Below are positions 18,946-43,003 of a stretch of 64,000 nucleotides of DNA, in pieces. This stretch comes from Pristiophorus japonicus (Eukaryota). Both the position numbers and the translations under genes were made by a program. Every line of letters starts with the position of its first letter. Position 1 is the first letter of the stretch. The stretch is from positions 273,172,001 to 273,236,000 of the forward strand of contig NC_091978.1 in assembly GCF_044704955.1 (NCBI RefSeq), given 5' to 3'. Below the pieces are notes generated by a model that had not been told where the DNA came from, ran no database searches, and saw nothing but the letters and a program-made list of their open reading frames with translations.

Positions 18946-19014
18946 TTGTGCCTGTGGTGCCTCTGTTAGAGCTATCCAATTAGTACCACTCCCCTGCTCT
19001 TCCCTATAGCCGGG

Positions 19015-19587
19015 TAAATGTGGGGATTTCGAGCTCTGCTGCAATTATAGGGTTAAGAAGGGGTCTCGGGGCTCAAATTAACTCACAGGCCATTTTCAGT
19101 GCTCAGCTTTTAGATTGCTTAATAGGCAGTTGAGAATAACATGTTGACTTTGCTAGAACTAATGAGGTAGGAACCACAAGGGGCTGAGGAGGGTAGAATA
19201 GCAGAACACTGGGGCAGACGTGAACCGTTAGCAAAATATCACCTGGCTGAGCAAGGTTCATGGTAGCAACAACTGATTGTGGTCACATCAGTCATACCTT
19301 CTTCAGTTTTGAAGGCAGTACCTTAATGTTACGCGAGCTAGGCAGAAAACAAAGGTGAGTGATTGTGACGCAGAAGGAAATTGCCCAGTCACTGTGCACA
19401 CGGGCTTTAAATTAATCAAATTGTGCCAAAGAATCGTGCACAAGGTTGAGTGTATAAAAGGTTGTTTGAAACTACGTATTGCTGGGCAGTGACTCGGCTG
19501 GGCCCATAGCAGGTCACCTCCCCACCGGTGCGAATAAAGACTGCTTGAATCTTCGAACACAGACCTGGTGTCGAGTTCTCCACTACA
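19015..19587 (+). repeat. 5' LTR of the env-bearing element
   Basis: Aligns by eye along its length with 33034-33628; TATAAAA, AATAAA and terminal CCACTACA. Confidence 0.88.
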
Positions 19588-19589
19588 AT

Positions 19590-19607
19590 TGGCATTGTCG
19601 GCAGAAT
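19590..19607 (+). promoter_or_regulatory. Primer binding site, tRNA-Ser-like
   Basis: TGGCATTGTCGGCAGAAT, 2 nt after the LTR; 15/18 match to TGGCGTAGTCGGCAGGAT, the complement of a vertebrate tRNA-Ser 3' end (from recall). Confidence 0.75.
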
Positions 19608-19844
19608 CTCAAGTGGGCGGCGGACACCAGCAGATGGAAGCCATGTCATCGGTGTGAGTACATTTTAATTACAAAGCACAGTTATGACAAGGGCAGAAAT
19701 CCATCTGGTGTCAGCTGCCTGAGACGTTCGAATCTGCAGGTCTGGCCGAGACTTCAAGTAGTCAGCGGAAGATCCCAGGTGAAACAATTGCGATTGGCTA
19801 AATAGAAGTGTGTCTGTGTAACGTTGCGATTGATAATTGGTATA

Positions 19845-20095
19845 GTTTGCAAATAACGGTCTCACTCGTGAGGAGTAAGTAAGGGATGTACTGCTGACAA
19901 CCAATAGGTTGCAAGTAACAGTCTCACTCAGGACAAGTAAGTAAGGGACGTACTGCTGACAACCAATAAGGTTGCAAATATCAGTCTCACTCGTGAGGAT
20001 TAAGTAAGGGACGAACCACTGACAACCAATGGGTTGCAAGTAACGGTCTCACTCAGGATGAATAAGTAAGGGACATACCGCTAACACGGTACCCA
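19845..20095 (+). repeat. ~60-bp tandem repeat (about 4 copies) in the LTR element's 5' leader
   Basis: Unit approximately GGTTGCAAGTAACAGTCTCACTCAGGA..AAGTAAGGGACGTACTGCTGACAACCAATA. Confidence 0.85.
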
Positions 20096-20375
20096 ATAGA
20101 CAAAAATCGAAAACTAATTGAAATAATGATTAAATAAAATTGGAAACCAGACAACCCACCAGCTGAATAAAGAAAATGGTGGGAGTTGTAAAAGAAACAA
20201 AAGGAGGAGAAAGCCCTCATTTTAGTTACTCGCGTGTATTATGAATTAAGTAGACGGACTAGACTATTGACAGAGAAAGCGACAAAATAAACCAACAGTA
20301 GGTGTGATGGCGACAGCACCTGTCAGGACACATAAAAAGGACAATATAGAAGGAGGGGGGGCGAAGGGGTGTAGG

Positions 20376-20495
20376 TTTAGAGACTATCTCTTCACTCAGA
20401 GGGTAGTGGGGGCCTGGAACTCACTGCCTGAAAGGGTGGTAGAGGTAGAAACCCTCACCATATTTAAAAGGTAATTTGACGTGCACTTAGAGTGT
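20376..20495 (+). mobile_element. Small CR1 ORF2 C-terminal fragment
   Basis: Encodes FTQRVVGAWNSLPERVVE. Confidence 0.7.
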
Positions 20496-21148
20496 ACGGG
20501 GATCAGAAATTGAAACTGGTTTAAGGAATAATGGATAGTTATGACTCAATAAAAAAGGAGAAAAGGGAAGAGGGGATCGACTTTCCACTTCACATCGCTG
20601 GCCTAGTGCCCATATATCGCCCAAAACGGCCTGCTATAGCCCATTTTGACTGAACAGTGGAAAGTTAGGCTGGATCATCATCAGAAAATTCTCCCCCCAA
20701 CTTTCGGCTTACATCGCCGAGCTGATCACCGAGATCATCGCCCGCACATTGCCCAGTGCAACTTTCGGCACATCGTTGGACTGATCGCTCGCCGAGAGCA
20801 TCGCTGGAGAATAGTTGCTTTTCCCGGGCTTTCCTCGCATAACTGGGTACTTTTGAAGGGAGGAGGCTGCTAAAACAAGAATGCTTACTAATTTGTGAGT
20901 TATTTAAGTGTATTTTACAGATATATGCACTCAAATTTAAACTTACATTTATTATTATAATTATATTTGCATTTATTTTAGCAGAAAGGGCATTTATATC
21001 AACAGTGAAAGTAATAGCAATAGTGATTAAAGTGTTGGGGCTGCAGCTTCTCTGCCATTATTTGTAAGTGCTCAACTGCTGGCATCTAAACTTGAGTTAA
21101 GTGAAGGGTTTAGTGAAGGGGTCAATCGTAGAGGTCGAAGATTAACGC

Positions 21149-22177
21149 ATGTCTGATGACGCACGCCTTCGGAGGTTATGCTTCCGAAAGGAGGTCATCA
21201 ATGAGATATGTCAGCTCATCAAGGGGGATCTGCAGCCTACCAGCACCATCAGGACTGCACTGTCCATTGAGGTAAAGGTTACTGCAGCACTACCCTTCTA
21301 TGCATTGGGCTCCTTTCAGGCTTCAGCTGGTGACATCTGTGGTATCTCTCAGCATGCTACACATTGCTCCATTCGACAGGTGACTCAAGCCCCTTATGCT
21401 CACAGGATGGACTTTATAAGCTTCCCTATGACCAGGGAGGCACAGACCAGGACGGCTTTGGATTTCTCAAGAATAGCAAACTTCCCCAAGGTGCAGGGAG
21501 CAAGAGACTGCATGCACATCACCCTGAAAACACCTCTACAGGACCCAGAGGAGTTTCGTAACCGAGAGGGAGTTCATTCGCTGAATGTGCAGCTCATTGT
21601 CGACCACAACCAAATTATCATGGCAATTAATGCTAATTTTCGAGGCAGCATCCATGATGCACACATCTAGTGTGAAAGTGCTGTCTCTGACCTATTTGAC
21701 AGTCAGCCACAAGGTCATGGTTGGATGCTGGGAGATAAAGGATATGGCCTTGCCAGCTGGCTCATGAACCCCCTGCCTAATCCCGTTACTGAAGCCGAGA
21801 AGCGTTACAATGAAAGCCACATAGCTACACGCAACATCGTCAAAAAGACAATTGGAGTCCTAATGCAATGTTTCAGATGCCTGGACCACTCTGGAGGCAG
21901 CCTACAGCACCATCCTGACCAAGTCGCTGAGTTTATTGTGGTGTGTTGCATGTTACATAACCTAGTTATAAGGAGAGGACAACATTTGCCAGATGGGGTT
22001 GCTGGTCCACCTCAAGAAGGATTGGAGACGGAAGAGGTAGATGACGAGGAGCAGGAGGAGGAGGAGGCTAATGAACCCATGCTCCCACGCCCACCCACAA
22101 GACTAGAAAAACCCTGTGGGAGTTACGCAGCTGCAAAACTGTTGCGTGAGCAGCTCATAAATGAACGCATTGCATGA
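21149..22177 (+). pseudogene. Harbinger (HARBI1-like) DDE transposase with one in-frame stop
   Basis: ORFs 21149-21670 and 21725-22177 share a frame, separated only by TAG 21668-21670. Motifs FPKVQGARDCMHI, HSLNVQ, GSIHD, LGDKGY, YNESHIATR..KTIG..FRCL, CCMLHN. Confidence 0.92.
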
Positions 22178-22522
22178 ACTTACATTGTGGACAGCCACAG
22201 TTACTGTTATGGTTATCGCAAAACAATGATTGCATTTGCCTTGAGTTACATTACATCCTTGCTTGGTCTGGCCGGCCATTGTTTACATTAATATGTTATT
22301 ACGTTATAAGAAAATGCACAATTGTAAATTGTAATAAAAATTTTTACTTAAACAAAATTTATATTATAACAACAACAGCCCACCAACCCACCCAACCTCT
22401 CCAAACCACACCCCGACAGTAAAACAGTGTCACACTGTGTACAAAATAAATTTCATCGAGGAGATTTAATATTAAAATTATAATTACAATGTTCATTAAT
22501 GCAATATAAAATCTGTACTTAC

Positions 22523-22759
22523 TCTTACTGATGCAACCAGGCTGTTCCAACGCTTGCAGCATTGGTCGGGCCCCCTCGCCTCGTGGGATGCCAAGGCGAC
22601 GACGTCCATAATCTCGATCCATATTTTTCTGTAGGCCCGGGATGGAGGTTTCCCACTGCCACCCTGGGTTAATGCGACTCACCTAGAGGGCACCTTTTGA
22701 ACGAGGGCCTCATTTGCCTCATCAGAAAATGGTTTTGCCCTTTTGCGACCCCCCTCCAT
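22523..22759 (-). pseudogene. Exon 1 of the Harbinger Myb/SANT gene (not in the ORF track)
   Basis: Minus-strand translation MEGGRKRAKPFSDEANEALVQKVPSR*VALTQGGSGKPPSRAYRKIWIEIMDVVALASHEARGPDQCCKRWNSLVASVR followed by GTAAGT; homologous to 1528-1764. Confidence 0.85.
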
Positions 22760-23105
22760 ACTGTCCGAAGAGGAGGACATTTTATTGTATTTTATTTTGC
22801 ATTGTATTGCACAATAAAATATATTGTATTTTATTTAGAATATTGTATTTTCCTTTTTATATTTTCTCTAATTGCATTTTAAATTAATACCGCCACCGCC
22901 ACCACCACCACTTTTCTTTGATGTTTAAAGTATTTGGGAAGTCATATTCCTTTGTGTGGCAGTGGCTCTTCCCCTTTTCCAAGTGGCATTGGTAAGTTTA
23001 GATTGGCATTACTGAGGTTAATTAACCAATTAAAAACCAACCTTTTATTATGGCCATGATAAAATTGTGTGGAGAGCCTTGAGTTCCGGACAGAAGGTAT
23101 TTCAC

Positions 23106-26100
23106 AGAAACATAGAACCATAGAAAATAGGTGCAGGAGTAGGCCATTCGGCCTTTCTAGCCTGCACCGCTATTCAATGAGTTCATGGCTGAATATGCAA
23201 CTTCAGTACCCCATTCCTGCTTTCTCACCATACCCCTTGTTCCTTCTAGTAGTAAGGACGACATCTAACTCCTTTTTGAATATATTTAGTGAATTGGCCT
23301 CAACAACTTTCTGTGGTAGAGAATTCCACAGGTTCACCACTCTCTGGGTGAAGAGGTTTCTCCTCATCTCGGTCCTAAATGGCTTACCCCTTATCCTTAT
23401 ACTGTGACCTCTGGTTCTGGACTTCCCCAACATTGGGAACATTCTTCCTGCATCTAATCTGTCTAAACCCATCAGAATTTTAAACGTTTCTATAAGGTCC
23501 CCTCTCATTCTTCTGAACTCCAGTGAATACAAACCCAGTTGATAGAGTCTTTCTTGATAGGTCAGTCCAGCCATCCCGGGAATCAGTCTGGTGATCCTTC
23601 GCTGCACTCCCTCAATAACAAGAATGTCCTTCCTCAGGTTAGGAGACCAAAACTGTACACAATACTCCAGGTGTGGCCTCACCAAGGCCCTGTACAACTG
23701 TAGCAACACCTCCCTGCCCCTGTACTCAAATCCCCTCGCTATGAAGGCCAACATGCCATTTGCTTTCTTAACCGCCTGCTGCACCTGCATGCCAACCTTC
23801 AATGACTGATGTACCATGACACCCAGGTCTCGTTGCACCTCCCCTTTTCCTAATCTGTCACAATTCAGATAATAGTCTGTCTCTCTGTTTTTACCACCAA
23901 AGTGGGCAACCTAACATTTATCCACATTATACTTCATCTGCCATGCATTTGCCCACTCACCTAACCTATCCAAATCGCTCTGCAGCCTCATAGCATCCTC
24001 CTCGCAGCTTACACTGCCACCTAACTTAGTGTCATCCGCAAATTTGGAGAGACTGCATTTAATCCCCTCGTCTAAATCATTAATATACAGTGTAAACAGC
24101 TGGGGCCCCAGCACAGAACCTTGCGGTACCCCACTACGCACCGCCTGCCATTCTGAAAAGTACCCATTTACTCCTACTCTTTACTTCCTGTCTGACAACC
24201 ATTTCTCAATCCATGTCAGCACACTACCCCCAATCCCATGTGCTTTAACTTTGCACATTAATCTCTTGTGTGGAACCTTGTCGAAAGCCTTCTGAAAGTC
24301 CAAATATACCACATCAAATGGTTCTCCCTTGTCCACTCTACTGGAAACATCCTCAAAAAATTCCAGAGGATTTGTCAAGCATGATTTTCCTTTCACAAAT
24401 CCATGCTGACTTGGACCTATCATGTCACCTCTTTCTAAATGCGCTGCTATGACATTCTTTATTAATTGATTCAATCATCTTACCCACTACCGATGTCAGA
24501 CTGACCGGTCTATAATTCTCTGTTTTTTCTCTCCCTCCTTTTTTAAAAAGTGGGGTTACATTGGCTCCCCTCCACTCGATAGGAACTGATCCAGAGTCAA
24601 TGGAATGTTGGAAAATGACTATCAATGCATCCGCTATTTCCAAGGCCACCTCCTTAAGTACTCTGGGATGCAGTCCATCAGGCCCTGGGGATTTATTGGC
24701 CTTCAATCCCATCAATTTCCCCAACACAATTTCCCGACTAATAAGGATTTCCGTCAGTTCCTCCTCCTTACTAGACCCTCTGACCCTTCTTATATCCGGA
24801 ATGTTGTTTGTGTCCTCCTTAGTGAATACCGAACCAAAGTACTTGTTCAATTGGTCCTCCATTTCTTTGTTTCCCGTTATGACTTCCCCTGATTCTGACT
24901 GCAGGGGACCTACATTTGTCTTTACTAACCTTTTTCTCTTTACATATCTATAGAAACTTTTGCAATCCGTCTTAATGTTCCCCGCAAGTTTCTTCTCGTA
25001 CTCCATTTTCCCTGCCCTAATCAAACCCTTTATCCTCCTCTGCTGAGTTCTAAATTTCTCCCAGTATCCAGGTTCGCTGCTATTTCTGGCCAATTTGTAT
25101 GCCACTTCCTTGGCTTTAATACTATCCCTGATTTCCCTTGATAGCCACGGTTGACCCACTTTCGCTTTTTTATTTTTATGCCAGACAGGAATGTACAATT
25201 GTTGTAGTTCATCCATGCGGTCTCTAAATGTCTGCCATTGCCCATCCACAGTCAACCCCTCAAGTATCATTCGCTAATCAATCCTAGCCAATTCACGCCT
25301 CATACCTTCAAAGTTACCCTTCTTTAAGTTCTGGACCATGGTCTCTGAATTAACTGTTTCATTCTCCATCCTAATGCAGAATTCCACCATATTATGGCCA
25401 CTTTTCCCCAAGGAGCCTCGCACAATGAGATTGCCAATTAATCCTCTCTCATTACACAACACCCAGTCCAAGATGGCCTCTCCCCTAGTTGGTTCCTCGA
25501 CATATTGGTCTTGAAAACCATCCCTTATGCATTCCAGGAAATCCTCCTCCACTGTATTGCTTCCAGTTTGGTTAGCCCAATCAATGTGCATATTAAAGTC
25601 ACCCATTATAACTGCTGCACCCTTATTGCATGCACGCATAATTTCTTGTTTGATGCCCTCCCCAACATCACTACTACTGTTTGGAGGTCTGTACACAACT
25701 CCCACTAACGTTTTTTGCCCTTTGGTGTTCTGCAGCTCTACCCATATAGATTCCACATCATTCAAGCTAATGTCATTCCTAATTATTGTATTAATCTCCT
25801 CTTTAACCAGCAATGGTACCCCACCTCCTTTTCCTTTTATTCTATCCTTCCTGAATGTTGAATACCCCTGGATGTTGAGTCCCCAGCCCTGATCATCCTG
25901 GAGCCACGTCTCCGTAATCCCAATCACATCATATTTGTTAACATCTATTTGCACAGTTAATTCATCCACCTTATTACGGATACTCCTTGCATTAAGACAC
26001 AAAGCCTTCAGGTTTGTTTTTTTAACACCCTTTGTCCTCTTAGAATTTTGTTGCACAGTGGCCCTTTTTGTTCTTTTTCTTGCGTTTCTCTGCCCTCCAC

Positions 26101-27360
26101 TTTTTCTCATCTCCTTTCTGTTTTTTGCTTTTGTCTCCTTTTTGTTTCCCTCTGTCTCCCTCCATTGGTTCCCATTCCCCTGCCATATTAGTTTAACCCC
26201 TCCCCAACAGCACTAGCAAACACTCCCCCTAGGACTTTGGTTCCGGTCCTGCCCAGGTGCAGACCGTCCGGTTTGTACTGGTCCCACCTCCCCCAGAACC
26301 GGTTCCAATGCCCCAGGAATTTGAATTCCTCCCTGCTGCACCACTGCTCAAGCCACGTATTCATCTGCGCTATCCTGCGATTCCTACTCTGACTAGCACG
26401 TGGTACTGGTAGCAATCCCGAGATTACTACTTTTGAGATCCTACTTTTTAAATTTAGCTCCTAGCTCCTTAAATTCGTTTCGTAGGACCTCATCCCTTTT
26501 TTTACCTATGTCGTTGGTACCAATGTGCACCACTACAACTGGCTGTTCTCCCTCCCTTTTTAGAATGTCCTGCACCCGCTCCGAGACATCCTTGACCTTT
26601 GCACCAGGGAGGCAACATACTATCCTGGAGTCTCGGTTGCGGCCGCAGAAACGCCTATCTATTCCCCTAACAATTGAATCCCCTATCACTATCGCTCTCC
26701 CACTCTTTTTCCTGCCCTCCTGTGCAACAGAGCCAGCCATGGTGCCATGAACTTGGCTGCTTCTGCCCTCCCCTGATGAGTCATCTCCCTCAACAGCACT
26801 CAAAGCAGTGAATCTGTTTTGCAGGGGGATGACCACAGGGGACCCTTGCACTACCTTCTTTGCACTGCTCTTCTTGCTGGTCATCCATTCCCTATCTGGC
26901 TGTGGACCCTTCTCCTGTAGTATGACCAACTCGCTACACGTGATACTCACCTCATTCTCAGCATCGTGGATGCTCCAGAGTGATTCCACCCTCAGCTCCA
27001 ACTCCGCAACGCGGACCATCAGGAGCTGGAGGTGGATACACTTCCTGCACACGTAGTCATCAGGGACACTGGAGTCGTCCCTGAGTTCCCACATAGTACA
27101 GGAGGAGCATATCACCCGACCGAGCTCTCCTGCCATGACTTAACCTTTAGATAGGCAACAATAATATTAAAGTTTACTCACTGTTAAAGAGAAGAAAGAG
27201 AAACTACTCACCAATCACCAGCCAATCACTTACCCGTTTGGCTGTGGCGTCACCTTTCTGTTTATTTTTACTTCGCGCTGCTCCAACTGCCGCCGCCTCA
27301 CTCTCCCGCTGGGCCTTTTATAGGCCTCACCAACCCCGGACTCGCGCTGCTCCAACTGCC
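23106..27360 (-). mobile_element. Near full-length CR1 LINE nested in the LTR element
   Basis: ORF1 26188-27136 (MAGELGRVICSSCTM, GDS, DGLH); ORF2 23203-26110 in several frames with EN and RT motifs; CATAGAA tail. Confidence 0.95.
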
Positions 27361-27894
27361 CAATAATTTCACATCAATAATTGGTATGGCTTTTAAAAAT
27401 TCTGACCACTGTGGGAGAAAAGGATAAAATGCTATTGCGTGCGAAGTTGTTTTTCTGAATGTTTATTTTAAAGAGTAAAAGCACAGAGACTTTAATCTGA
27501 AATGGTTGCAAACTGTGGGACGGAAGTTGACATTGATTGATGGTGTCTGTGTCTGTCGGCTTTCGAAACAAAGGAAGTTAATTCTTTCACAGGCAGCTGT
27601 GAACTCTGTTTTAATTCAGTGGGCGATACCTTTTGAATATTGGAAATTTTCTTAATTTGAAGAGAATATTTTCTCCTGGGGTAGAAGGAATTTTAGGATC
27701 ATGTTACAAATTAACCCCTCAGGCTCTTAAGCAGAATCACCAGAGATTCTCTGTTTCTTTTGTTTTAAGCAGGGTGACCATCGAGAAGAGGCGATGTTGA
27801 TTAAAGGGGTTAGTGGATTGTGCCTGAGGGATAAGGAGAGCACACCACCATAACCGACTACATCTGGCCCTGAGTAAATCTCAGGAGTGTATAA

Positions 27895-28020
27895 AGAGGG
27901 AACTCCGGTACAAGGGACCGTATAATATAGTTGATAAAGCTAGTCCCATGGTATATGCAGCCCGGTTATCTAGGAGAATGAAATGGTTATATATCAACCA
28001 GATTAAGTTTTTTCAGTTCA
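27895..28020 (+). pseudogene. Integrase C-terminal (GPY/F) remnant of the LTR element
   Basis: Translates ELRYKGPYNIVDKASPMVYAARLSRRMKWLYINQIKFF, fitting the GPY..K.SP..Y..W.H.NQ.K pattern of integrase C-termini. Confidence 0.75.
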
Positions 28021-28459
28021 CCAACAGGTACCGAGACAAGAGAAAATGGTTATGAAAATGGGGAGCTGGATTCGTCCTCTCCAGCGGGATGAAGAAGGGG
28101 TGACTAATGGGATGCCCCTGCCTAATCATGTACCATATGATCCAAATGGAAGTGAAAAGGACATGGGAGCTGGAAGAATCTCCTCGGGTCCTAGATCTGG
28201 AACCACCTCCTGTCCACAGACATGCCTCGCAAACCCCGCCAATCTCACAAAGTAGCAAGAGATATAGCATGAATGGTAGAAGTAGGGATGGCCGAGGGTA
28301 TAGGATAGGGGTATGTTTCCAGTGGCATGGTAATCATACCACTGTCACAGTCCATTATATCAAGGGGTGCAAGGATGGAAGTGCAGTTGTATAAGCAGTA
28401 GAGTTCAAAAAAGACTCATGCAAAGGCTCCTTCTCCAATGAATAAACAGATTTGTGAGA

Positions 28460-31400
28460 AAAGCAATAGTTTGTCATAAACACATCCCAGGGCCAACAAA
28501 TGGGCTAATGGTAATCCCAACTCAGATGATATTGTACCATCACGTGCATCACAAAGTGGTATCTGTAATATTGAATCTGACCAAAGTGTGACTATCTGGG
28601 TGGTGCAAGCCTAAAACAGCGCGGCTACAAGGGAGAAAGATCAAGGGATTTGGGCAGAGGGCCAGTACAACCTGCACTGAATTTAGGGAGAGTGGTGGGC
28701 TTGATCGTACCTTGACAAGAATGGTGCCGAGTCTATTGGGGAGAATCATAACAGAAGGCGGTGAAGCCTGATTAATATGTTGCAACTTGTTTAATGCTAA
28801 AAAGGGGGTAAACCAGATTGTAGAAGGGGAACAAATTGTCTTCAACGAAATGGCTCGAAGTAATGTATGGATCTTGGTTAGTGGAACAAGCCCAAGGAAA
28901 CCTGAGCATATTGCAGAGGGAAAGCTCTCTTTCTGGGTAACTGATCGAGACCTAGGGCAATGTCTACTTATCAACTTACTAAGATTCTGTGCCAAGTCAG
29001 AAGGTTGGTACAGGTGTACCCAGTGGCATGAGTGTCATTTACAGGAACAGAATTACATCACCCTGTTAGAGATAGTATGGTATTACCCAATCATGCCTGA
29101 CAAAATTTAATAGGATACAATGAACACCTGAAATGTAACCCAGGCTGATGGGAAAAACATGTGTAGCCCCAGGCTGAATTGGGTGTGCTCAAGCTCAGGA
29201 CATGTTCATTTGCCTCTACGACGTGGTACAACATACAGTCTCTGCATGCGGGTCTAATTAGGATGGGATAAACATAAGAACATAAGAAATAGGAATAGGG
29301 ATAACATGGAACTGCACCGTGAAGATAATTGCGGAACAGCATTTTCCCGTACGATCTGTATAAAGAGGGAAGGGTGAATATTGTGTCAGCACCATACACC
29401 GGGAATACCAGTATGGTATCAACCCGACTTGTCCCATCGCGACGGGAATGTTTGTTTTACCCCAGTCTAAACTGTGAGACTTAGGCCGCGGGTTTCATTA
29501 AGTACTTATTTGCTTAGGCAAGTAAATATCACTAAGAAAGGAGCTAAAAGTGTAACTGCCAAAGGAAAGATATAATGAATTTGGATAGTTAATTGGGCCA
29601 ATTGAGGACCAAGTACAATGGGCATTAAGCAAAATGGGGAACAGAGGGTCACAACGGGTAGACGATGAGGTGATACTTACGGTACATATGATCGAGATAG
29701 TCCGACAATGAACCACGAGACAATGTGTGGTTTTCATGTTATCTATTGTCTAACAACAACCGATACACACTATCGGTATGCGGTGGGGGTGGCAACTGTT
29801 AACACATTTGACATAGCCAGTATAGACCAAGAAGTTCAAGACTTAGTCCAACGTTTGAGAACCCTTCTATTAAAGGGAAACAATCTGACTTCGCAGTGGT
29901 CAGAAACAGGGGACGAGGTCGCCAGACAAATGCTGCAAGTCGAGGAAATCCGAGAGCCTCATGCCCAAACTATCAATAAGATAAGTGTGCGACTAAATGA
30001 TCTCACCCAAGAAACACGTAAATAACTTTTATGTGCAATGTATGGCACATGGTTACTAGGGAACATCCGATACAATGTAAACTAGATGAAACAGGGAAAA
30101 ATGCCCGAGTGGATAATGAGCAGTTGTCCAAATGGACTAAGGATGGTATTACTCTCTGCGATGTTCACAAGACAACACAAGTGTCCTTGTCCCCAAGTAA
30201 TTGTATTACCCGAACCTCTGTGGACAGTACAGAATATAGGCGAGATGTAAGGTCATTCCCGGGTTTTATTCCACGGTATGCCCCTCTATGCGGTAAAACT
30301 AAGTGGCCCATTCCAAGGGGTCAACATCGACAGCTGCACGCAATATTTGGATGTGATAGTGTGCGCACACCCATAGAAGGAGGACAACGTATAGCATGCG
30401 GATTCACTCAGACGGTTAATCGCACGTTGGAAATCAGAGAGGAAATGAGGTGGCAGCCCGGGATGATGGGACGTACTGCATATAATAATAGCACAAAATA
30501 TAAAAACAGACAGCAAGAGTTTCTATAGGTATATAAAAAGGAAAAGTGGCTAAAGTAAATGTTGGTCCCTTAGAGGACGAGACCGGGGAATTAGTAATGG
30601 GGAGCATGGAGATGGCAGAAACTCTGAATAAATAATTTATATCAATCTTTACGGTAGAGGACACTAATAATATTCCAACAGTGGATCGTCAAGGGGCTAT
30701 GGGAGGGGGGGTGGACTTAACACAATCACAATCACAAAGGAAGTGGTATTCAGTAAGATAATGGGGCTAAAGTCAGATAAATCCCCTGGACCTGATGGCT
30801 TGCATCCTAGGGTCTTAAGAGAAGTAGCAGCAGGGATAGTGGATGCATTGGTTGTAATTTACCAAAATCCCCTGGATTCTGGGGAGGCTCCAGCAGATTG
30901 GAAATCTGCAAATGTAACCCCCACTATCTAAAAAAGGAAGCAGACAAAAAGCAGGAAACTATAGACCAGTTAGCCTAACATCTGTGGTTGGAAAAATGTT
31001 GGAGTCCATTATTAAAGAAGCAGTAGCAGGACATTTAGAAAAGCAAAATTCAGTTAGGCAGAGTCAGCATGGGTTTATGAATGGGAAGTCATATTTGACA
31101 AATTTGCTGGAATTCTTGAGGATGTAACGAACAGGGTGGATAAAGGGGAACCAGTGGATGTGGTGTATTTAGACTTCCAGAAGATATTTGACAAGGTGCC
31201 ACATAAAAGGTAACTGCACAAGATAAAAGTTCACGGGGTTGGGAGCAATATATTAGCATGGGATAGAGGATTGGCTAATGAACAGAAAACAGAGAGTTAG
31301 GTTAAATGGTTCATTCTCGGGTTGGCAATCAGTAACTAGTGGGGTGCCACAGGGATCAGTGCTGGGACCCCAACTATTTACAATCTATATTAACGACTTG

Positions 31401-32897
31401 GAAGAAGGGACCGAGTGTAACGTAGCCAGGTTTGCTGACGATACAAAGATGGGAGGAAAAGCAATATGTGACGAGAACACAAAAAACCTGCAAAAGGACA
31501 TAGACAGGCTAAGTGAGTGGACAAAAATTTGGCAGATGGAGTAAAATGTTGGAAAGTATGAGGTCATGCACTTTGGCAGAAAAAAATCAAAGCTATTATT
31601 TAAATAGAGAAAGATTGCTAAGTGCTGCATTACAGCGGGGTGTGGGAGTACTTGTGCATGAAACACAAAAGGTTAGTATGCAGGTATAACAAGTGATCAG
31701 GAAAGCCAAAGGAAACTTGGTCTTTATTGCAAAAGGGATGGAGTATAAAAGCAAGGAAGTCTTGCTATAGTTATACAGGGTATTGGTGAGGCCACATCTG
31801 GAATACTGCATGCAGTTTTGGTTTCCATATTTACTTGCTTTGGAGGCAGTTTAGAGAAGGTTCACTAGGTTGATTGCGGAAATGAGGAGGTTGAATTATG
31901 AGGAAAGGTTGAGGAGGTTGAGCCTCTATTCATTAGAATTCAGAAGAATGAGAGGTGGTCTTATCGAAACGTATAAGATTATGAGGGGGCTTGATAAGGT
32001 GGATGCAGAGAGGATGTTTCCATTAATAGGGGAGACTAGAACTAGAGGGCATAATCTTAGAATAAGGGGCTGCCCATTTAAAATTGAGATGAGGAGAAAT
32101 TTCTTCTCTCAGAGGGTTGTAAATCTGTGATATTCGCTGCCTCAGAGAGCTGTGGAAGCTGGGACATTGAATAAATTTAAGACAGAAAGAGAGTTTCTTA
32201 AATGATAAGGGAAAAAGGGGTTATGGGATGCGGGCAGGGAAGTGGACCATAATCCATGATCGGATCAGCCATGATCGTATTAAATGGCGGAGCAGGCTCG
32301 AAGGGTTGTATGGGCCACTCCTGCTCCTATTTCTTATGTTCTTATATCTACTAAGGAAAATGAGTACAAGCATGGTAATGTCATATGTGCAATCCCACAG
32401 CCTAATTTCTGTTTTACGCCTAAAGCTGTGGTCAAAATAGGCCATCGATACCTATTCCCACAAAGAGAGGAACATGGCGAGAATATCACTTTAAACAACC
32501 CAAGATGGGATGATGAAATGGAACAATATGAGATACCAACTTGGCAAGACATTCCCCGTCTCGAAGAACATTTGATGCAATTGAAAAAAGACACAGAAAG
32601 TAAAAGGACATCATCATGAGATTTTGGAAGATACCATACAGCATTCGAAGGACATCGAGGAAACCCTGAAGGACACTCAGTGGTGGGAACATGTATGTAA
32701 TTGGGGAATGAATGGTTAATATCCATCCGTGGATTCGTATAACCTCTCACGTATTGATGGTCATACAGTTAGGGCTAGCTGTCGGTTGGGGAATTGGGTT
32801 ATGTGTGGTGTGCAGAAAGAGGCAACGGGGAAGAAAAGCAAAGGCTTTAATTATGAAACAGCTAAAGTTCTTAGCCGAATACACTGAAATACTTTGA
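28460..32897 (+). pseudogene. Degraded envelope/fusion glycoprotein gene, split by a CR1 insertion
   Basis: IPGPTNGLMVIPTQMILYHHVHHKVVSVILNLT (28484); putative fusion peptide plus heptad repeat YAVGVATVNTFDIASIDQEVQDLVQRLRTLL..TINKISVRLNDLTQE (29775-30020); Cys-rich segment; second heptad region and WW (32550-32710); TM HVLMVIQLGLAVGWGIGLCVV followed by basic CRKRQRGRK, just before the PPT/LTR. Confidence 0.8.
30490..32347 (+). mobile_element. 5'-truncated CR1 LINE inserted in env
   Basis: [25 protein letters not shown] and RRNFFSQRVVNL motifs; TTCTTATGTTCTTAT tail. Confidence 0.92.
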
Positions 32898-33033
32898 GAT
32901 GTAGGTCACGTCCCGAATCCTCCGTCCCCCAAACCGCATGGCTGATCACCACAGAACGAGGCAGGGGACACAGGACGGAGCAGAATTCGGTTGGTATTCT
33001 TAGGCTGGGTAGCCAAGTACCAAAAGGGGGTAC

Positions 33034-33628
33034 TGAAGTGGGGATTTCTGCTATAATTATAGGGTTAAGAAGGGGTTTCGGGGTTCAAATTAACTAACGG
33101 GCTGTTTTCAGTGGTCAGCTTTTAGATCGCTTGATAGGTAGTTGAGAATAACACGTTGACTTTGCAAGTAGTAACCGAGGTAGGAACCACAAGGGGCCTA
33201 GGAGGGTAGAAAAACAGAACACTGGGGCAGACATGAACTGTTAACAAGATACCACCTGGCCTGAGCAAGGTTCATGGTAGCAACAACAGATTGTGGTCTC
33301 ATCAGTCATACCTTCTTCAGTTATGAAGGCGATACCTTAATGTTACGCGAGCTAGGCAGAAAACCAAGGTGAGTGATTGTGATGCGGAAGGAAATTGACC
33401 AGTCACTGTGCACGCGGGCTTTAAACTAATCAAATTGTGCCAAAGGATCGTGCATGAGGTTCAGCATGTGCGTTTAAGTGTATAAAACGTTGTTTGAAAC
33501 CAGGTATCATTGGACAGTGACCTGTCTAGACCCATAGCAGGTCACCTCCCTACCGGTGCGAATAAAGACTGCTTCAATCTTTGAACACAAACCTGGTGTC
33601 GAGTGTTTGTTTGAACTACTCCACTACA
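33034..33628 (+). repeat. 3' LTR of the env-bearing element, preceded by PPT AAAAGGGGG (33022-33030)
   Basis: TGAAGTGG...CCACTACA imperfect inverted termini; homologous to 19015-19587. Confidence 0.9.
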
Positions 33629-33747
33629 ATCTGGAATGTGTAATTAGAATCGCCTGCCTACATAATCAGTGACTTTGCAAAGTGCAATTCGAGCCATTCT
33701 GTCTGCCGCATTCAGACAGGAGAGCTCACTTTCACAGGTCAAGACCT

Positions 33748-38239: not shown

Positions 38240-41200
38240 TCAGTCTTTTCTTTTATTTTTTATATCAGTAAGTGAACTTTAGCATTGTTATTACCAATTT
38301 AAGGGTATCTAAGGTTAAGACATGGCAGGAGAGCTCGGTCGCGTGATATGCTCCTCCTGTACCATGTGGGAACTCGGGGACACTTCCGGTGTCCCTGGGC
38401 GCTACGCGTGTGGGAAGTGTATCCGCCTCCAGCTCCTGACGGTCCGCATTGCGGAATTGGAGCTGAGGGTGGATTCACTCTGGAGCATCCACGATGCTGA
38501 GAATGACGTGAGTATCACGTGTAGTGAGTTGGTCTTACCGCAGGAGAAGGGTCCACAGCCAGATAGGGAATGGAAGACCAGCAGGAAGAGCAGTGCAAGA
38601 AAGATAGTGCAGGGGTCCCCTGTGGTCATCCCCCTGCAAAGCAGATACACTGCTTTGAGTACTGTTGGGGAGGATGACTCATCGGGGGAGGGCAGCAGCA
38701 GCCAAGTTCATGGCACCTTAGGTGGCTCTGCTGCAAAGGAGGGCAAGAAAAAGATTGGGAGCGTGATAGTGACAGGAGATTCGATGGCGAGGGGAATAGA
38801 TAGGCGTTTCTGCGGACGCAACCGAGACTCCAGGATGGTATGTTGCCTCCCTGGTGCAAGGGTCAAGGATGTCTCGGAGCGGGTGCAGGACATTCTGAAA
38901 TGGGAGGGAGAACAGCCAGTTGTCGTGGTGCACATTGGTACCAACGACATAGGTAAAAAAAGGGATGAGGTCCTAGAAAAGAATTTAAGGAGCTAGGAGC
39001 TAAATTAAAAAGTAGGACCTCAAAAGTAGTAATCTCGGGATTGCTACCAGTGCCACGTGCTAGTCAGAGTAGGAATCGCAGGATAGCGCAGATGAATACA
39101 TGGCTTGAGCAGTGGTGCAGCAGGGAGGGATTCAAATTCTTGGGGCATTGGAACTGGTTCTGGGGGAGGTGGGACCAGTACAAACCGGACGGTCTGCACC
39201 TGGGCAGGACCGGAACCAATGTCCTAAGGGGAGTGTTTGCTAGTGCTGTTGGGGAGGAGTTAAACTAATATTGCAGGGGGATGGGAACCTATGCAGGGAG
39301 ACAGAGGGAGACAAAAATGAGGCAAAAGCAAAAGACAGAAAGGAGATGAGGAAAAGTGGAGGGCAGAGAAACCCAAGGCAAAGAACAAAAAGGGCCACTG
39401 TACAGCAAAATTCTAAAAGGACAAAGGGTGTTAAAAAAGCAAGCCTGAAGGCTTTGTGTCTTAATGCAAGGAGTATCCGCAATAAGGTGGATGAATTAAC
39501 TGTGCAAATAGATGTTAACAAATATGATGTGATTGGGATTACGGAGATGTGGCTCCAGGATGATCAGGGCTGGGAACTCAACATCCAGGGGTATTTAACA
39601 TTCAGGAAGGATAGAATAAAAGGAAAAGGAGGTGGGGTAGCATTGCTGGTTAAAGAGGAGATTAATGCAATAGTTAGGAAAGACATTAGCTTGGATGATG
39701 TGGAATCTATATGGGTAGAGCTGCAGAACACTAAAGGGCAAAAATCGTTAGTGGGAGTTGTGTACAGACCTCCAAACAGTAGTAGTGATGTTGGGGAGGG
39801 CATCAAACAGGAAATTAGGAGTGCATGCAATAAAGGTGCAGCAGTTATAATGGGTGACTTTAATATGCACATAGATTGGGCTAGCCAAATTGGAAGCAAT
39901 ACGGTGGAGGAGGATTTCCTGGAGTGCATAAGGGATGGTTTCTAGACCAATATGTCGAGGAACCAACTAGGGGGGAGGCCATCTTAGACTGGGTGTTGTG
40001 TAATGAGAGAGGATTAATTAGCAATCTCATTGTGCGAGGCCCCTTGGGGAAGAGTGACCATAATATGGTGGAATTCTGCATTAGGATGGAGAATGAAACA
40101 GTTAATTCAGAGACCATGGTCCAGAACTTAAAGAAGGGTAACTTTGAAGGTATGAGGCATGAATTGGCTAAGATAGATTGGCTAATGATACTTAAGGGGT
40201 TGACTGTGGATGGGCAATGGCAGACATTTAGAGACCGCATGGATGAATTACAACAATTGTACATTCCTGTCTGGCGTAAAAATAAAAAAGGGAAGGTGGC
40301 TCAACCGTGGCTATCTAGGGAAATCAGGGATAGTATTAAAGCCAAGGAAATGGCATACAAATTGGCCAGAAATAGCAGCGAACCTGGGGACTGGGAGAAA
40401 TTTAGAACTCAGCAGAGGAGGACAAAGGGTTTGATTAGGGCAGGGAAAATGGAGTACGAGAAGAAGCTTGCAGGGAACATTAAGGCGGATTGCAAAAGTT
40501 TCTATAGGTATGTAAAGAGAAAAAGGTTAGTAAAGACAAACGTAGGTCCCCTGCAGTCAGAATCAGGGGAAGTCATAACGGGGAACAAAGAAATGGCAGA
40601 CCAATTGAACAAGTACTTTGGTTCGGTATTCACTAAGGAGGACACAAACAACCTTCCGGATATAAAAGGGGTCAGAGGGTCTTGTAAGGAGGAGGAACTG
40701 AGGGAAATCCTTATTAGTCGGGAAATTGTGTTGGGGAAATTGATGGGATTGAGGGCCTGATGGACTGCATCCCAGAGTACTTAAGGAGGTGGCCTTGGAA
40801 ATAGCGGATGCATTGACAGTCATTTTCCAACATTCCATTGACTCTGGATCAGTTCCTATCGAGTGGAGGGTAGCCAATGTAACCCCACTTTTTAAAAAAG
40901 GAGGGAGAGAGAAAGCAGGGAATTATAGACCGGTCAGCCTGACCTCAGTAGTGGGTAAAATGATGGAATCAATTATTAAGGATGTCATAGCAGCGCATTT
41001 GGAAAATGGTGACATGATAGGTCCAAGTCAGCATGGATTTGTGAAAGGGAGATCATGCTTGACAAATCTTCTGGAATTTTTTGAGGATGTTTCCAATAAA
41101 GTGGACAAAGGAGTACCAGTTGATGTGGTATATTTGGACTTTCAGAAGGCTTTCGACAAGGTCCCACACAGGAGATTAATGTGCAAAGTTAAAGCACATG

Positions 41201-42312
41201 GGATTGGGGGTAGTGTGCTGACGTGGATTGAGAACTGGTTGTCAGACAGGAAGCAAAGAGTAGGAGTAAATGGGTACTTTTCGGAATGGCAGGCAGTGAC
41301 TAGTGGGGTACCACAGGGTTCTGTGCTGGGGCCCCAGCTGTTTACATTGTACATTAATGATTTAGACGAGGGGATTAAATGTAGTATCTCCAAATTTGCG
41401 GATGACACTAAGCTGGGTGGCAGTGTGAGCTGCGAGGAGGATGCTATGAGGCTGCAGAGTGACTTGGATAGGTTAGGTGAGTGGGCAAATGCGTGGCAGA
41501 TGAAGTATAATGTGGATAAATGTGAGGTTATCCACTTTGGTGGTAAAAACAGAGAGACAGACTATTATCTGAATGGTGACAGATTAGGAAAAGGGAAGGT
41601 GCAACGAGACCTGGGTGTCATGGTACATCGGTCATTGAAGGTTGGCATGCAGGTACAGCAGGCGGTTAAGAAAGCAAATGGCATGTTGGCCTTCATAGCG
41701 AGGGGATTTGAGTACAGGGGCAGGGAGGTGTTGCTACAGTTGTACAGGGCCTTGGTGAGGCCACACCTGGAGTATTGTGTACAGTTTTGGTCTCCTAACT
41801 TGAGGAAGGACATTCTTGCTATTGAGGGAGTGCAGCGAAGATTCACCAGACTGATTCCCGGGATGGTGGGACTGACCTATCAAGAAAGACTGGATCAACT
41901 GGGCTTGTATTCACTGGAGTTCAGAAGAGTGAGAGGGGACCTCATAGAAACGTTTAAAATTCTGACGGGTTTGGACAGGTTGGATGCAGGAAGAATGTCC
42001 AGAACCAGGGGTCACAGTCTAAGGATAAGGGGTATGCCATTTAGGACCGAGATAAGGAGAAACTTCTTCACCCAGAGAGTGGTGAACCTGTGGAATTCTC
42101 TACCACAGAAAGTAGTTGAGGCCAATTCACTAAATATATTCAAAAGGGAGTTAGATGAAGTCCTTACTACTCGGGGGATCAAGGGGTATGGCGTGAAAGC
42201 AGGAAGGGGGTACTGAAGTTTCATGTTCAGCCATGAACTCATTGAATGGCGGTGCAGACTAGAAGGGCTGAATGGCCTGTTCCTGCACCTATTTTCTATG
42301 TTTCTATGTTTC
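38240..42312 (+). mobile_element. Near full-length, relatively young CR1 LINE
   Basis: ORF1 38322-39268; ORF2 in three long segments (39271-39945, 39924-40760, 40789-42216, the last a 475-aa RT with FADD); TTTCTATG tail. Confidence 0.96.
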
Positions 42313-43003
42313 TTTTTTGCAATTTTTACAATGGAAGTCAATCTTTTTTGTGCTATGGTAGCCAAAACGTAATAGTTTTCCAAGGGTGGTCGAAAAATAG
42401 TCAGCATAATTTCTGTAGAATTATATTCTAATGTTCTAACTATAGATTCTAAACCATATAGAGGCATACAAGAAGTGTTTAAGGTATTCATCCTTCTTAT
42501 TCAGCCTTATCTGGTGAGTTTTTTTCTTCAGATAGCATCAACTATTTGCAGCTGATTTAGGACGCTACGTTTGGAACTTGCTGCCCACAAACAAATATAG
42601 CAGGTCTAAAGTTGGACACATCATCTTTTTCCTGTGTGCACAAATTCATGTACATGCATCTGCAATTGGAAAAAGATTTATACACTGTGTATTGCTGAAA
42701 AGCAAATAATTGCATAACACCAACAAAATAGCTCTTAAAATTCTTTACAAATACTTTAACTTAAAGGAGCAGTTTTTGTGCAATATTTACTTTACCAGCT
42801 GATCCCAATGGCAAGTGACAGAGACTCGAAGCAAGCTGGTGTTATTGATAAACTGTAGTAAGGAAAAACTACCTGGTGAAATATTTTTTGAAAGTGTTCA
42901 GAATTTCAGACTTTTCCAGCTGCATAGCTTACCTCACTCGTGGTTTTCAGATTGTAAGGAATCGAAGAATCAAGCAGGGTTAGAGAGGAAGTGTTTGGTA
43001 AAA

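What the first reader, a model, noticed from the sequence alone, without database searches (positions are those of the whole stretch)
19015..33628. Env-bearing LTR element in a probable shark genome resembling a lokiretrovirus
Seen: paired LTRs, a tRNA-Ser-like PBS, a PPT, an integrase GPY tail and a long env remnant. The env has an N-terminal PGP..G motif, a GVATVN hydrophobic peptide, a heptad repeat, a Cys-rich block, a second heptad, WW, a TM helix and a basic tail. I see no CX6CC/immunosuppressive-domain motif of gamma-type Env. Established: lokiretroviruses are a sister lineage of classical retroviruses whose Env resembles paramyxo/pneumovirus F. Inference: this is a deleted provirus of that type, possibly an undescribed chondrichthyan family. 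It is hidden because nested insertions occupy over half its span.
Basis: partly seen in the sequence, partly recalled or inferred. Interest (0 to 1): 0.75.

Follow-up and report, generated by a model that had tools for sequence, protein, structure and literature searches.

The report
Chimeric shark retrovirus with two envelopes
This dead retrovirus fossil, in what is likely a shark genome, is not a lokiretrovirus but a many-copy patchwork of two distant, likely snakehead-retrovirus-type parents, carrying two broken envelope genes in tandem whose family is predicted to fold like the fusion protein of measles-type viruses.

Summary
The anatomy is real: LTRs about 10% diverged, Ser-tRNA PBS, PPT, integrase tail and env remnant, with nested CR1/Harbinger inserts filling 58%. 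The env family folds like paramyxo/pneumovirus F (relative's model, Foldseek E 1e-8) and has no gamma-type motif. The lokiretrovirus label fails. RTs of gag-pol relatives in this genome carry none of four signature motifs of published Loki RTs (0 of 16 rows), and their RT and RNase H motifs resemble snakehead retrovirus (SnRV). LTRs, leader, gag remnant and 3' env come from lineage B. The integrase tail and a first env come from lineage A, whose RT is only 35-45% identical to B's. Two truncated F-like ectodomains therefore lie in tandem, and neither is complete. The family was likely copied in trans by lineage-B helpers and kept swapping its 3' end with them.

The parts
19015..19587 (+). 5' LTR (lineage B); first bases decayed, no TSD match
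19590..19607 (+). primer-binding site, tRNA-Ser type (assignment recalled)
   Evidence: the same PBS follows the 5' LTR of CmiERV lineage I
19842..20086 (+). 62-bp tandem repeat in the leader, 3.9 copies here
20099..20248 (+). gag N-terminal remnant, lineage B type
   Evidence: tblastn to L097 gag E 8.7e-4 here and 1.9e-8 in copy L068; no hit to three lineage-A gag pieces; 75-84% nt to B parents
20340..20571 (+). short CR1-like 3' fragment shared by family copies, so captured before the family spread (CR1 likeness partly by eye)
20572..22911 (+). nested Harbinger-type DNA transposon remnant, absent from the other copies examined
   Evidence: PF13359 E 9e-17 and 1.5e-7
22912..23106 (+). family internal segment; 22998-23069 matches A-type elements
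23107..27365 (-). nested CR1-type LINE (esterase ORF1, endonuclease ORF2)
27366..28440 (+). lineage-A segment with integrase C-terminal tail (GPY motif, about 27828-28090)
28440..29550 (+). env unit A (lineage A): F2 start and Cys-rich block; about 185 nt spanning fusion peptide and first heptad missing near 28800; no TM; no long frame free of shared stops
29550..29775 (+). junction sequence of unassigned origin
   Evidence: no match to A-type or B-parent loci
29775..30496 (+). env unit B, 5' part (lineage B): second half of fusion peptide, first heptad, start of Cys-rich region; no signal peptide, F2 or cleavage site
30497..32343 (+). nested 5'-truncated CR1 LINE
32344..32895 (+). env unit B, 3' part: Cys block end, second heptad, WW, TM helix, basic tail
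33022..33030 (+). polypurine tract
33034..33628 (+). 3' LTR (lineage B), TG...CA ends

Best explanation
This is one decayed copy of a many-copy, polymerase-less endogenous retrovirus stitched from two distant parent lineages that are likely of the snakehead-retrovirus clade, and it was likely copied in trans by a helper virus of the lineage that gave it its ends. Shown: the LTRs, leader, gag remnant, 3' env and PPT match lineage-B proviruses, and the integrase tail and first env match lineage-A elements. Shown: both env units are homologous to one Env family, whose model resembles paramyxo/pneumovirus F, and each unit lacks essential parts. Inferred: the chimera arose by template switching between co-packaged RNAs. 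Inferred: lineage-B Gag, RT and integrase mobilised it through its B-type cis signals. Inferred: repeated recombination with helpers refreshed its 3' end, which explains why unit B looks open and conserved. Its own Env was probably never needed.
For: Mosaic map: 19015-20380 and 29775-33628 match B parents at 70-88% nt; 22998-23069 and 27643-29550 match A-type loci at 71-89%. Of 30 loci found with unit-B DNA, 8 have their own F2 upstream (donors), 18 have unit-A-side sequence upstream (chimeras) and 4 are unclear. Upstream of 9 such loci, 6 hold gag and/or RT-tether-RNase H-integrase remnants, 5 share the family leader or gag start, and 1 is a chimera. 0 of 15 family 5' regions show protease or RT, and whole copy L011 spans about 6.5 kb LTR to LTR without pol. 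A full shark Env matches both units, and the env tree separates them (unit A with A-type loci, 96; unit B with lineage C, 91). The relative's Env model (pLDDT 65) has F proteins as all listed top PDB hits (best E 1.1e-8; VIA Z 8.1, rmsd 4.3 over 201 residues), and the ESM Atlas gives Baculo_F 0.93 and Fusion_gly 0.89 for a Mustelus relative. RT and RNase H motifs match the SnRV row, not the Loki rows. Two subfamilies differ by 0.17-0.21 in the 3' half of unit B against 0.08-0.14 within, but equally (about 0.10) in unit A.
Against: No tree contained the real SnRV, Loki, foamy or ERV-L sequences, so the clade call rests on motifs read against published alignments. My RT trees leave A and B at the base: B is sister to class-I-like rows at only 85/86, and an A+B clade is not rejected (p-AU 0.218). 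Unit B is free of shared stops over 477 codons with pairwise dN/dS 0.53 (other frames 0.74 and 0.89), which selection on the element itself could also give. Unit A mid-part also shows 0.62. Helper use is inferred, not observed.
Confidence: 0.75

Rival explanations
1. It is a deleted lokiretrovirus, the first in cartilaginous fish.
For: Relatives have tether plus a second RNase H, an F-like Env and RTs outside both Gypsy and the class-I-like rows. Lineage-A gag has a long coiled coil reminiscent of the Loki smc gene.
Against: 0 of 16 RT rows carry any of four Loki motifs, while CPFG occurs 5 times in a file with 5 Loki rows. The back-translated Loki motif has 0 exact matches in the genome. RNase H lacks the Loki DGC start seen in 5 displayed rows. 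No ray-finned-fish protein above 40% identity came up with the A RT. Dual RNase H and F-like Env are not diagnostic: foamy and walleye-virus Envs also match the model.
Confidence: 0.07
2. Unit B was kept open by selection on the non-autonomous element, for example as a spliced, truncated TM protein that aids spread or blocks related viruses.
For: 477 codons without a shared stop, and dN/dS 0.53 against about 1 in the integrase tail and unit-A F2 part.
Against: It lacks a signal peptide, F2, cleavage site and half the fusion peptide. The synonymous excess sits between subfamilies and in the 3' half, as expected from swaps with diverged coding donors, and such donors exist. The copies examined are broken by stops or frameshifts.
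Confidence: 0.12
3. The mosaic arose at DNA level: an A-type element inserted into a B provirus, and deletions trimmed both before the composite was amplified.
For: Nested insertion is rampant here, and a CR1-like scrap sits at the first junction in several copies.
Against: No A-type LTR sequence was seen in the family. The pieces lie in canonical gag-IN-env order, and the second junction joins env to env.
Confidence: 0.15
4. It is an env-bearing Gypsy (errantivirus-like) element.
For: The integrase tail hits a Tf2-type SH3 weakly, and Atlas neighbours include Gypsy env clusters.
Against: Both parents have a second RNase H, and their RTs lie outside Gypsy at 100/100.
Confidence: 0.02

Closest known systems
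Snakehead retrovirus (SnRV) clade; SnRV rows seen in the supplement of PMC9040795
   Same: RT motifs (YTWTR.PQGFH, QYVDDIL; YP.VAS and LEEE.Q in 3 of 3 lineage-C rows) and RNase H motif (GALEG..SAQVAELVAL) in lineage B/C; RT and late RNase H motifs in lineage A
   Different: Endogenous, chimeric and polymerase-less; I did not test whether SnRV's own Env is F-like
CmiERV lineage I of the elephant shark (Han 2015, PMC4422223; first part of the text and supplement part 1 read)
   Same: Placed with SnRV by the author; same Ser-type PBS, leader repeats, coiled-coil gag, and a pol that resembles lineage A on my by-eye translation
   Different: Its env is gamma-type (LQNR and CX6CC by eye), not F-like; different LTR
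Lokiretroviruses / lokiorterviruses (PMC7947760, parts 1-3 of 4 read plus supplement passages; PMC9040795, passages)
   Same: LTR-gag-pol-env layout in relatives, dual RNase H, F-like Env with cleavage site, fusion peptide, coiled coils and TM
   Different: RT and RNase H signatures absent; no PF00523 sequence hit; the authors found none in 6 of 6 chondrichthyan genomes
Foamy virus Env, class Ib fusogen (PMC11468914, passages)
   Same: Shares the F-like core; chain 8rm0 matches the model at Z 6.8, rmsd 3.9 over 194 residues
   Different: No leader-peptide architecture seen; the parents' RT motifs are not foamy-like

Membership tests
Lokiretrovirus | RT falls in the Loki clade | tested here: not met
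   By motifs only: 0 of 16 rows carry CPFG, [RH]WPM, IYVDD or FNIFLH against the published rows; a tree with Loki rows could not be built
Lokiretrovirus | Dual RNase H (tether plus RH) | tested here: met
   Relatives L039, L049 and L133, L134; shared with all retroviruses, so not diagnostic
Lokiretrovirus | RNase H of the Loki type | tested here: not met
   Loki rows start DGC, A and B/C rows start DGS; B/C RH best matches XMRV/MLV RH at E 1e-25 and groups with canonical rows 98/98; A RH best matches human RNase H1
Lokiretrovirus | Env with sequence similarity to PF00523 | tested here: not met
   0 of 58 rows;
Lokiretrovirus | Env of F-like build | tested here: met
   On a relative's model; the window's two units are homologous to it but incomplete
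Lokiretrovirus | Integrase closest to CGIN1 | not tested
   No CGIN1 reference held
Lokiretrovirus | smc gene (in some members) | tested here: inconclusive
   Coiled-coil gag N-terminus in lineage A with weak Pfam hits only; CmiERV lineage I has one too
SnRV clade | RT and RNase H motifs like SnRV | tested here: met
   motif comparison, strongest for lineage C, the sister of B
SnRV clade | Monophyly with SnRV in a Pol tree | not testable with these tools
   No stored SnRV sequence; viral-contig scan empty
Gamma-type Env | ISD and CX6CC in TM | tested here: not met
   0 of 6 window frames; CX6CC in 1 of 51 env rows, a frog protein
Metaviridae / Gypsy | Single RNase H and RT in the Gypsy clade | tested here: not met

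The most novel reading that the evidence does not exclude
Sharks harbour several large, deep-branching SnRV-type retrovirus lineages that all use a paramyxovirus-like class Ib Env, recombine across 55-65% RT divergence, and swap that Env for a gamma-type one in a close relative. With foamy, Loki and walleye-virus Envs, this would make the F-like fusogen the ancestral retroviral envelope. The two-env chimera would be a preserved intermediate of envelope exchange.
Probability: 0.3. Interest if true: 0.75.

Novelty: new variant of a known kind. Interest (0 to 1): 0.5.

Why it matters
Wang and Han left four scenarios open for the origin of retroviral Env, because Loki Env showed no similarity to canonical retroviral Env. 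Here retroviruses with canonical, SnRV-like polymerases carry F-like Envs in many copies, which favours an early F-like Env and can be tested with trees and structures. The family also records recombination between lineages as distant as separate genera, with both env donors still present in the same genome. It warns that an F-like Env does not identify a lokiretrovirus.

Tried and rejected
Env fragments of the family found nothing in Pfam, the protein database, the Atlas or PDB sequences. The first fold (21 rows, pLDDT 41.5) was uninformative. A 37-row env profile found no F protein in PDB sequences; its best hit was a weak match to the HERV-K TM C-terminus (E 0.0033), which I do not take as homology. 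I first read the clade of A with Xenopus and Latimeria proteins (81/85) as Loki, because the paper lists Loki-Xtr and Loki-Lch. Those proteins lack the Loki motifs, so I dropped that reading. The gag-pol inside copy L012 is a nested Gypsy, not the partner. Searching with the zinc-knuckle remnant returned only non-autonomous copies. Viral contigs gave no reference retrovirus. The Troyka paper's supplement could not be read, and the Wang and Han 2020 supplement was cut when stored; either may bear on the clade call. Literature searches showed no paper on Loki in sharks or on an F-like Env in the SnRV clade; the library lacks most subscription journals.

Full report
OBSERVATION. The element spans 19015-33628. 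Its LTRs differ at 58 of 563 compared sites (K2P 0.112). Two other two-LTR copies give 0.099 and 0.125. With the rates assumed in the papers read (2.2e-9 or 2.2e-10 per site per year) this means anything from about 25 to 255 million years. The LTR is a genome-wide family (835 first-look candidates, 40 scored) with TG...CA ends. Three of the five LTR loci without internal sequence show a clear 5-bp TSD, as does whole copy L011; this copy shows none. A Harbinger remnant and two CR1 LINEs fill 8,446 of 14,614 nt. The genome holds 5.9 Gb, and the closest named Env proteins come from a sawshark, a skate and a smooth-hound, so a cartilaginous-fish host is likely.

A FAMILY WITHOUT POLYMERASE. The 6.2 kb left between the inserts is shared with other copies. 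All 20 loci fetched with the env DNA carry the same arrangement as far as they reach; the query favoured such copies. L011 runs LTR to LTR in about 6.5 kb with no pol. None of 15 loci found with a gag zinc-knuckle remnant shows protease or RT. The deletion therefore predates the spread of the family.

TWO ENVELOPES. Full Env proteins match the element twice. The Cys-rich block of a Mustelus Env aligns at 29181-29453, and residues 265-693 align again from 29786 to 32852. Unit A has the F2 start and the Cys block but lacks about 185 nt covering the fusion peptide and first heptad, and it has no TM. Unit B begins inside the fusion peptide and runs to the TM and tail, without signal peptide, F2 or cleavage site. 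Across 18 aligned pieces, unit B is free of shared stops for 477 codons, whereas stretches in the A part reach only 84-130 codons.

TWO PARENTS. Divergent integrase-tail hits led to lineage A: proviruses with coiled-coil gag, protease, RT, tether, RNase H, integrase and one env, and A-type elements with their own LTR (L042, L044, L047). A search with unit-B DNA led to lineage B: 8 of 30 loci have their own F2 upstream of unit B, 18 are chimeras and 4 are unclear. Upstream of the donors lie decayed gag and pol and, in five, the family's leader or gag start. The map assigns 19015-20380 and 29775-33628 to B, assigns 22998-23069 and 27643-29550 to A, and leaves 29550-29775 unassigned. B and A RTs are 35-45% identical; B is 52-68% identical in its better-matching RT pieces to a third family, C. 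The env tree (24 rows) keeps the two units apart.

WHAT THE ENV IS. Sequence searches gave no family: PF00523 hit 0 of 58 rows. A natural stop-free env stretch of a lineage-A relative, folded with 58 rows, reached pLDDT 65 and pTM 0.50. All listed top PDB matches are paramyxo- or pneumovirus F (best E 1.1e-8, TM about 0.3). The Foldseek-free search ranks NDV F first (Z 8.1, rmsd 4.3, 201 residues), with foamy Env at Z 6.8 and unrelated helical chains from Z 6.6. Viral models add lispivirus G, baculovirus F, walleye-virus Env and foamy Env. The Atlas gives Baculo_F 0.93 and Fusion_gly 0.89 for the Mustelus Env. The family is therefore F-like (class Ib in the terms of PMC11468914, passages read), and the fold is not specific to Loki.

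WHICH CLADE. RT trees place A, B and C outside Gypsy (100/100) and outside the class-I-like rows (35 of 41, 36 of 36 and 28 of 36 rows; the 8 dropped rows are named). B+C is sister to those rows at 85/86, and an A+B clade is not rejected (p-AU 0.218). No SnRV, Loki or foamy row was available. I first took the grouping with Xenopus and Latimeria proteins as Loki. Earlier scan notes pointed to SnRV, and I tested this against published alignments (PMC9040795 supplement passages). Loki RTs carry CPFG, [RH]WPM, IYVDD and FNIFLH; 0 of 16 rows here do, the Xenopus and Latimeria proteins included. The back-translated motif has no exact match in the genome. The SnRV row shares the PQGF/QYVDD frame with A and B, and YP.VAS and LEEE.Q with all 3 C rows. 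Its RNase H shares GALEG..SAQVAELVAL with C and a late motif with A, while Loki RNase H starts DGC. B/C RNase H groups with canonical rows (98/98). CmiERV lineage I, placed with SnRV by Han 2015, has the same PBS and an A-like pol by eye, but a gamma-type env. Wang and Han found Loki in 0 of 6 chondrichthyan genomes, and this finding does not change that.

HOW IT WORKED. Shown: the cis signals are B-type, pol is absent, both env units are truncated, and donors are present. Inferred: template switching joined B ends to an A middle, and B helpers then packaged and copied the RNA. Two subfamilies are equally distant in unit A (about 0.10 within and between) but differ by 0.17-0.21 against 0.08-0.14 in the 3' half of unit B, mostly at synonymous sites. 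This fits repeated 3' swaps with coding helpers. Selection on a truncated unit B is the main alternative (mean dN/dS 0.53); unit A mid-part gives 0.62, so the ratio alone is weak. The within-group figures rest on 3-15 pairs.

VERDICT. The feature is real and the F-like Env is supported, but it is not a lokiretrovirus. It is a chimeric non-autonomous ERV family of probable SnRV-clade parents. Searches showed no paper on this, and a word search of scan notes found no chimera report; SnRV-type F-like Env was noted before in other genomes. Other papers: PMC8922424, PMC12440569, PMC12583693 and bioRxiv 2023.10.26.564294 were seen as passages only. New variant of a known kind; interest 0.5.

Noticed in passing
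L049, L055-L066 (lineage-A env family): A large expansion: 142 of 142 scored matches are 89-100% identical in protein, from 18,673 first-look candidates.
   Followed up: partly
L082-L091, L096-L097, L131-L138 (lineage C): A second large retrovirus family with F-like env and SnRV-like pol: 131 matches at E <= 1e-40 from 129 scored candidates.
   Followed up: partly
L049:1618-2211, L040:1367-1990: Possible Ig-like domain ahead of the F part of lineage-A Env (Ig_3 E 0.028 and 0.093), as earlier findings noted in other genomes.
   Followed up: partly
PMC4422223 supplement, CmiERV scaffold 2: A-like pol joined to a gamma-type env, which suggests an envelope swap inside this clade (by-eye reading).
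   Followed up: partly
P0040, P0047, P0048, P0049, P0054, P0077: Long Env homologues in Mustelus, Chiloscyllium, Heterodontus and the frogs Pelodytes and Mantella (16-member cluster).
   Followed up: no
L042, L044, L047: A separate lineage-A family with its own LTR and a single env; L042 has both LTRs, a partial integrase and no gag or RT.
   Followed up: partly
window 19005-19019 and 33629-33634: No target-site duplication, so a flank was lost or the two LTRs come from different integrations.
   Followed up: no
L014:501-6535: A LINE with long ORF1 and ORF2 (RVT_1, endonuclease, zf-RVT) nested in the family copy on C11.
   Followed up: no
window 23106-27203 and 38247-42313: The nested CR1 has a 93% identical inverted copy 11 kb away.
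   Followed up: no
BFVD hits: Walleye epidermal hyperplasia virus and walleye dermal sarcoma virus Env, and a fish filovirus glycoprotein, match the F-like model (E 6e-9, 3e-6, 5e-9; TM-scores 0.19-0.35).
   Followed up: no
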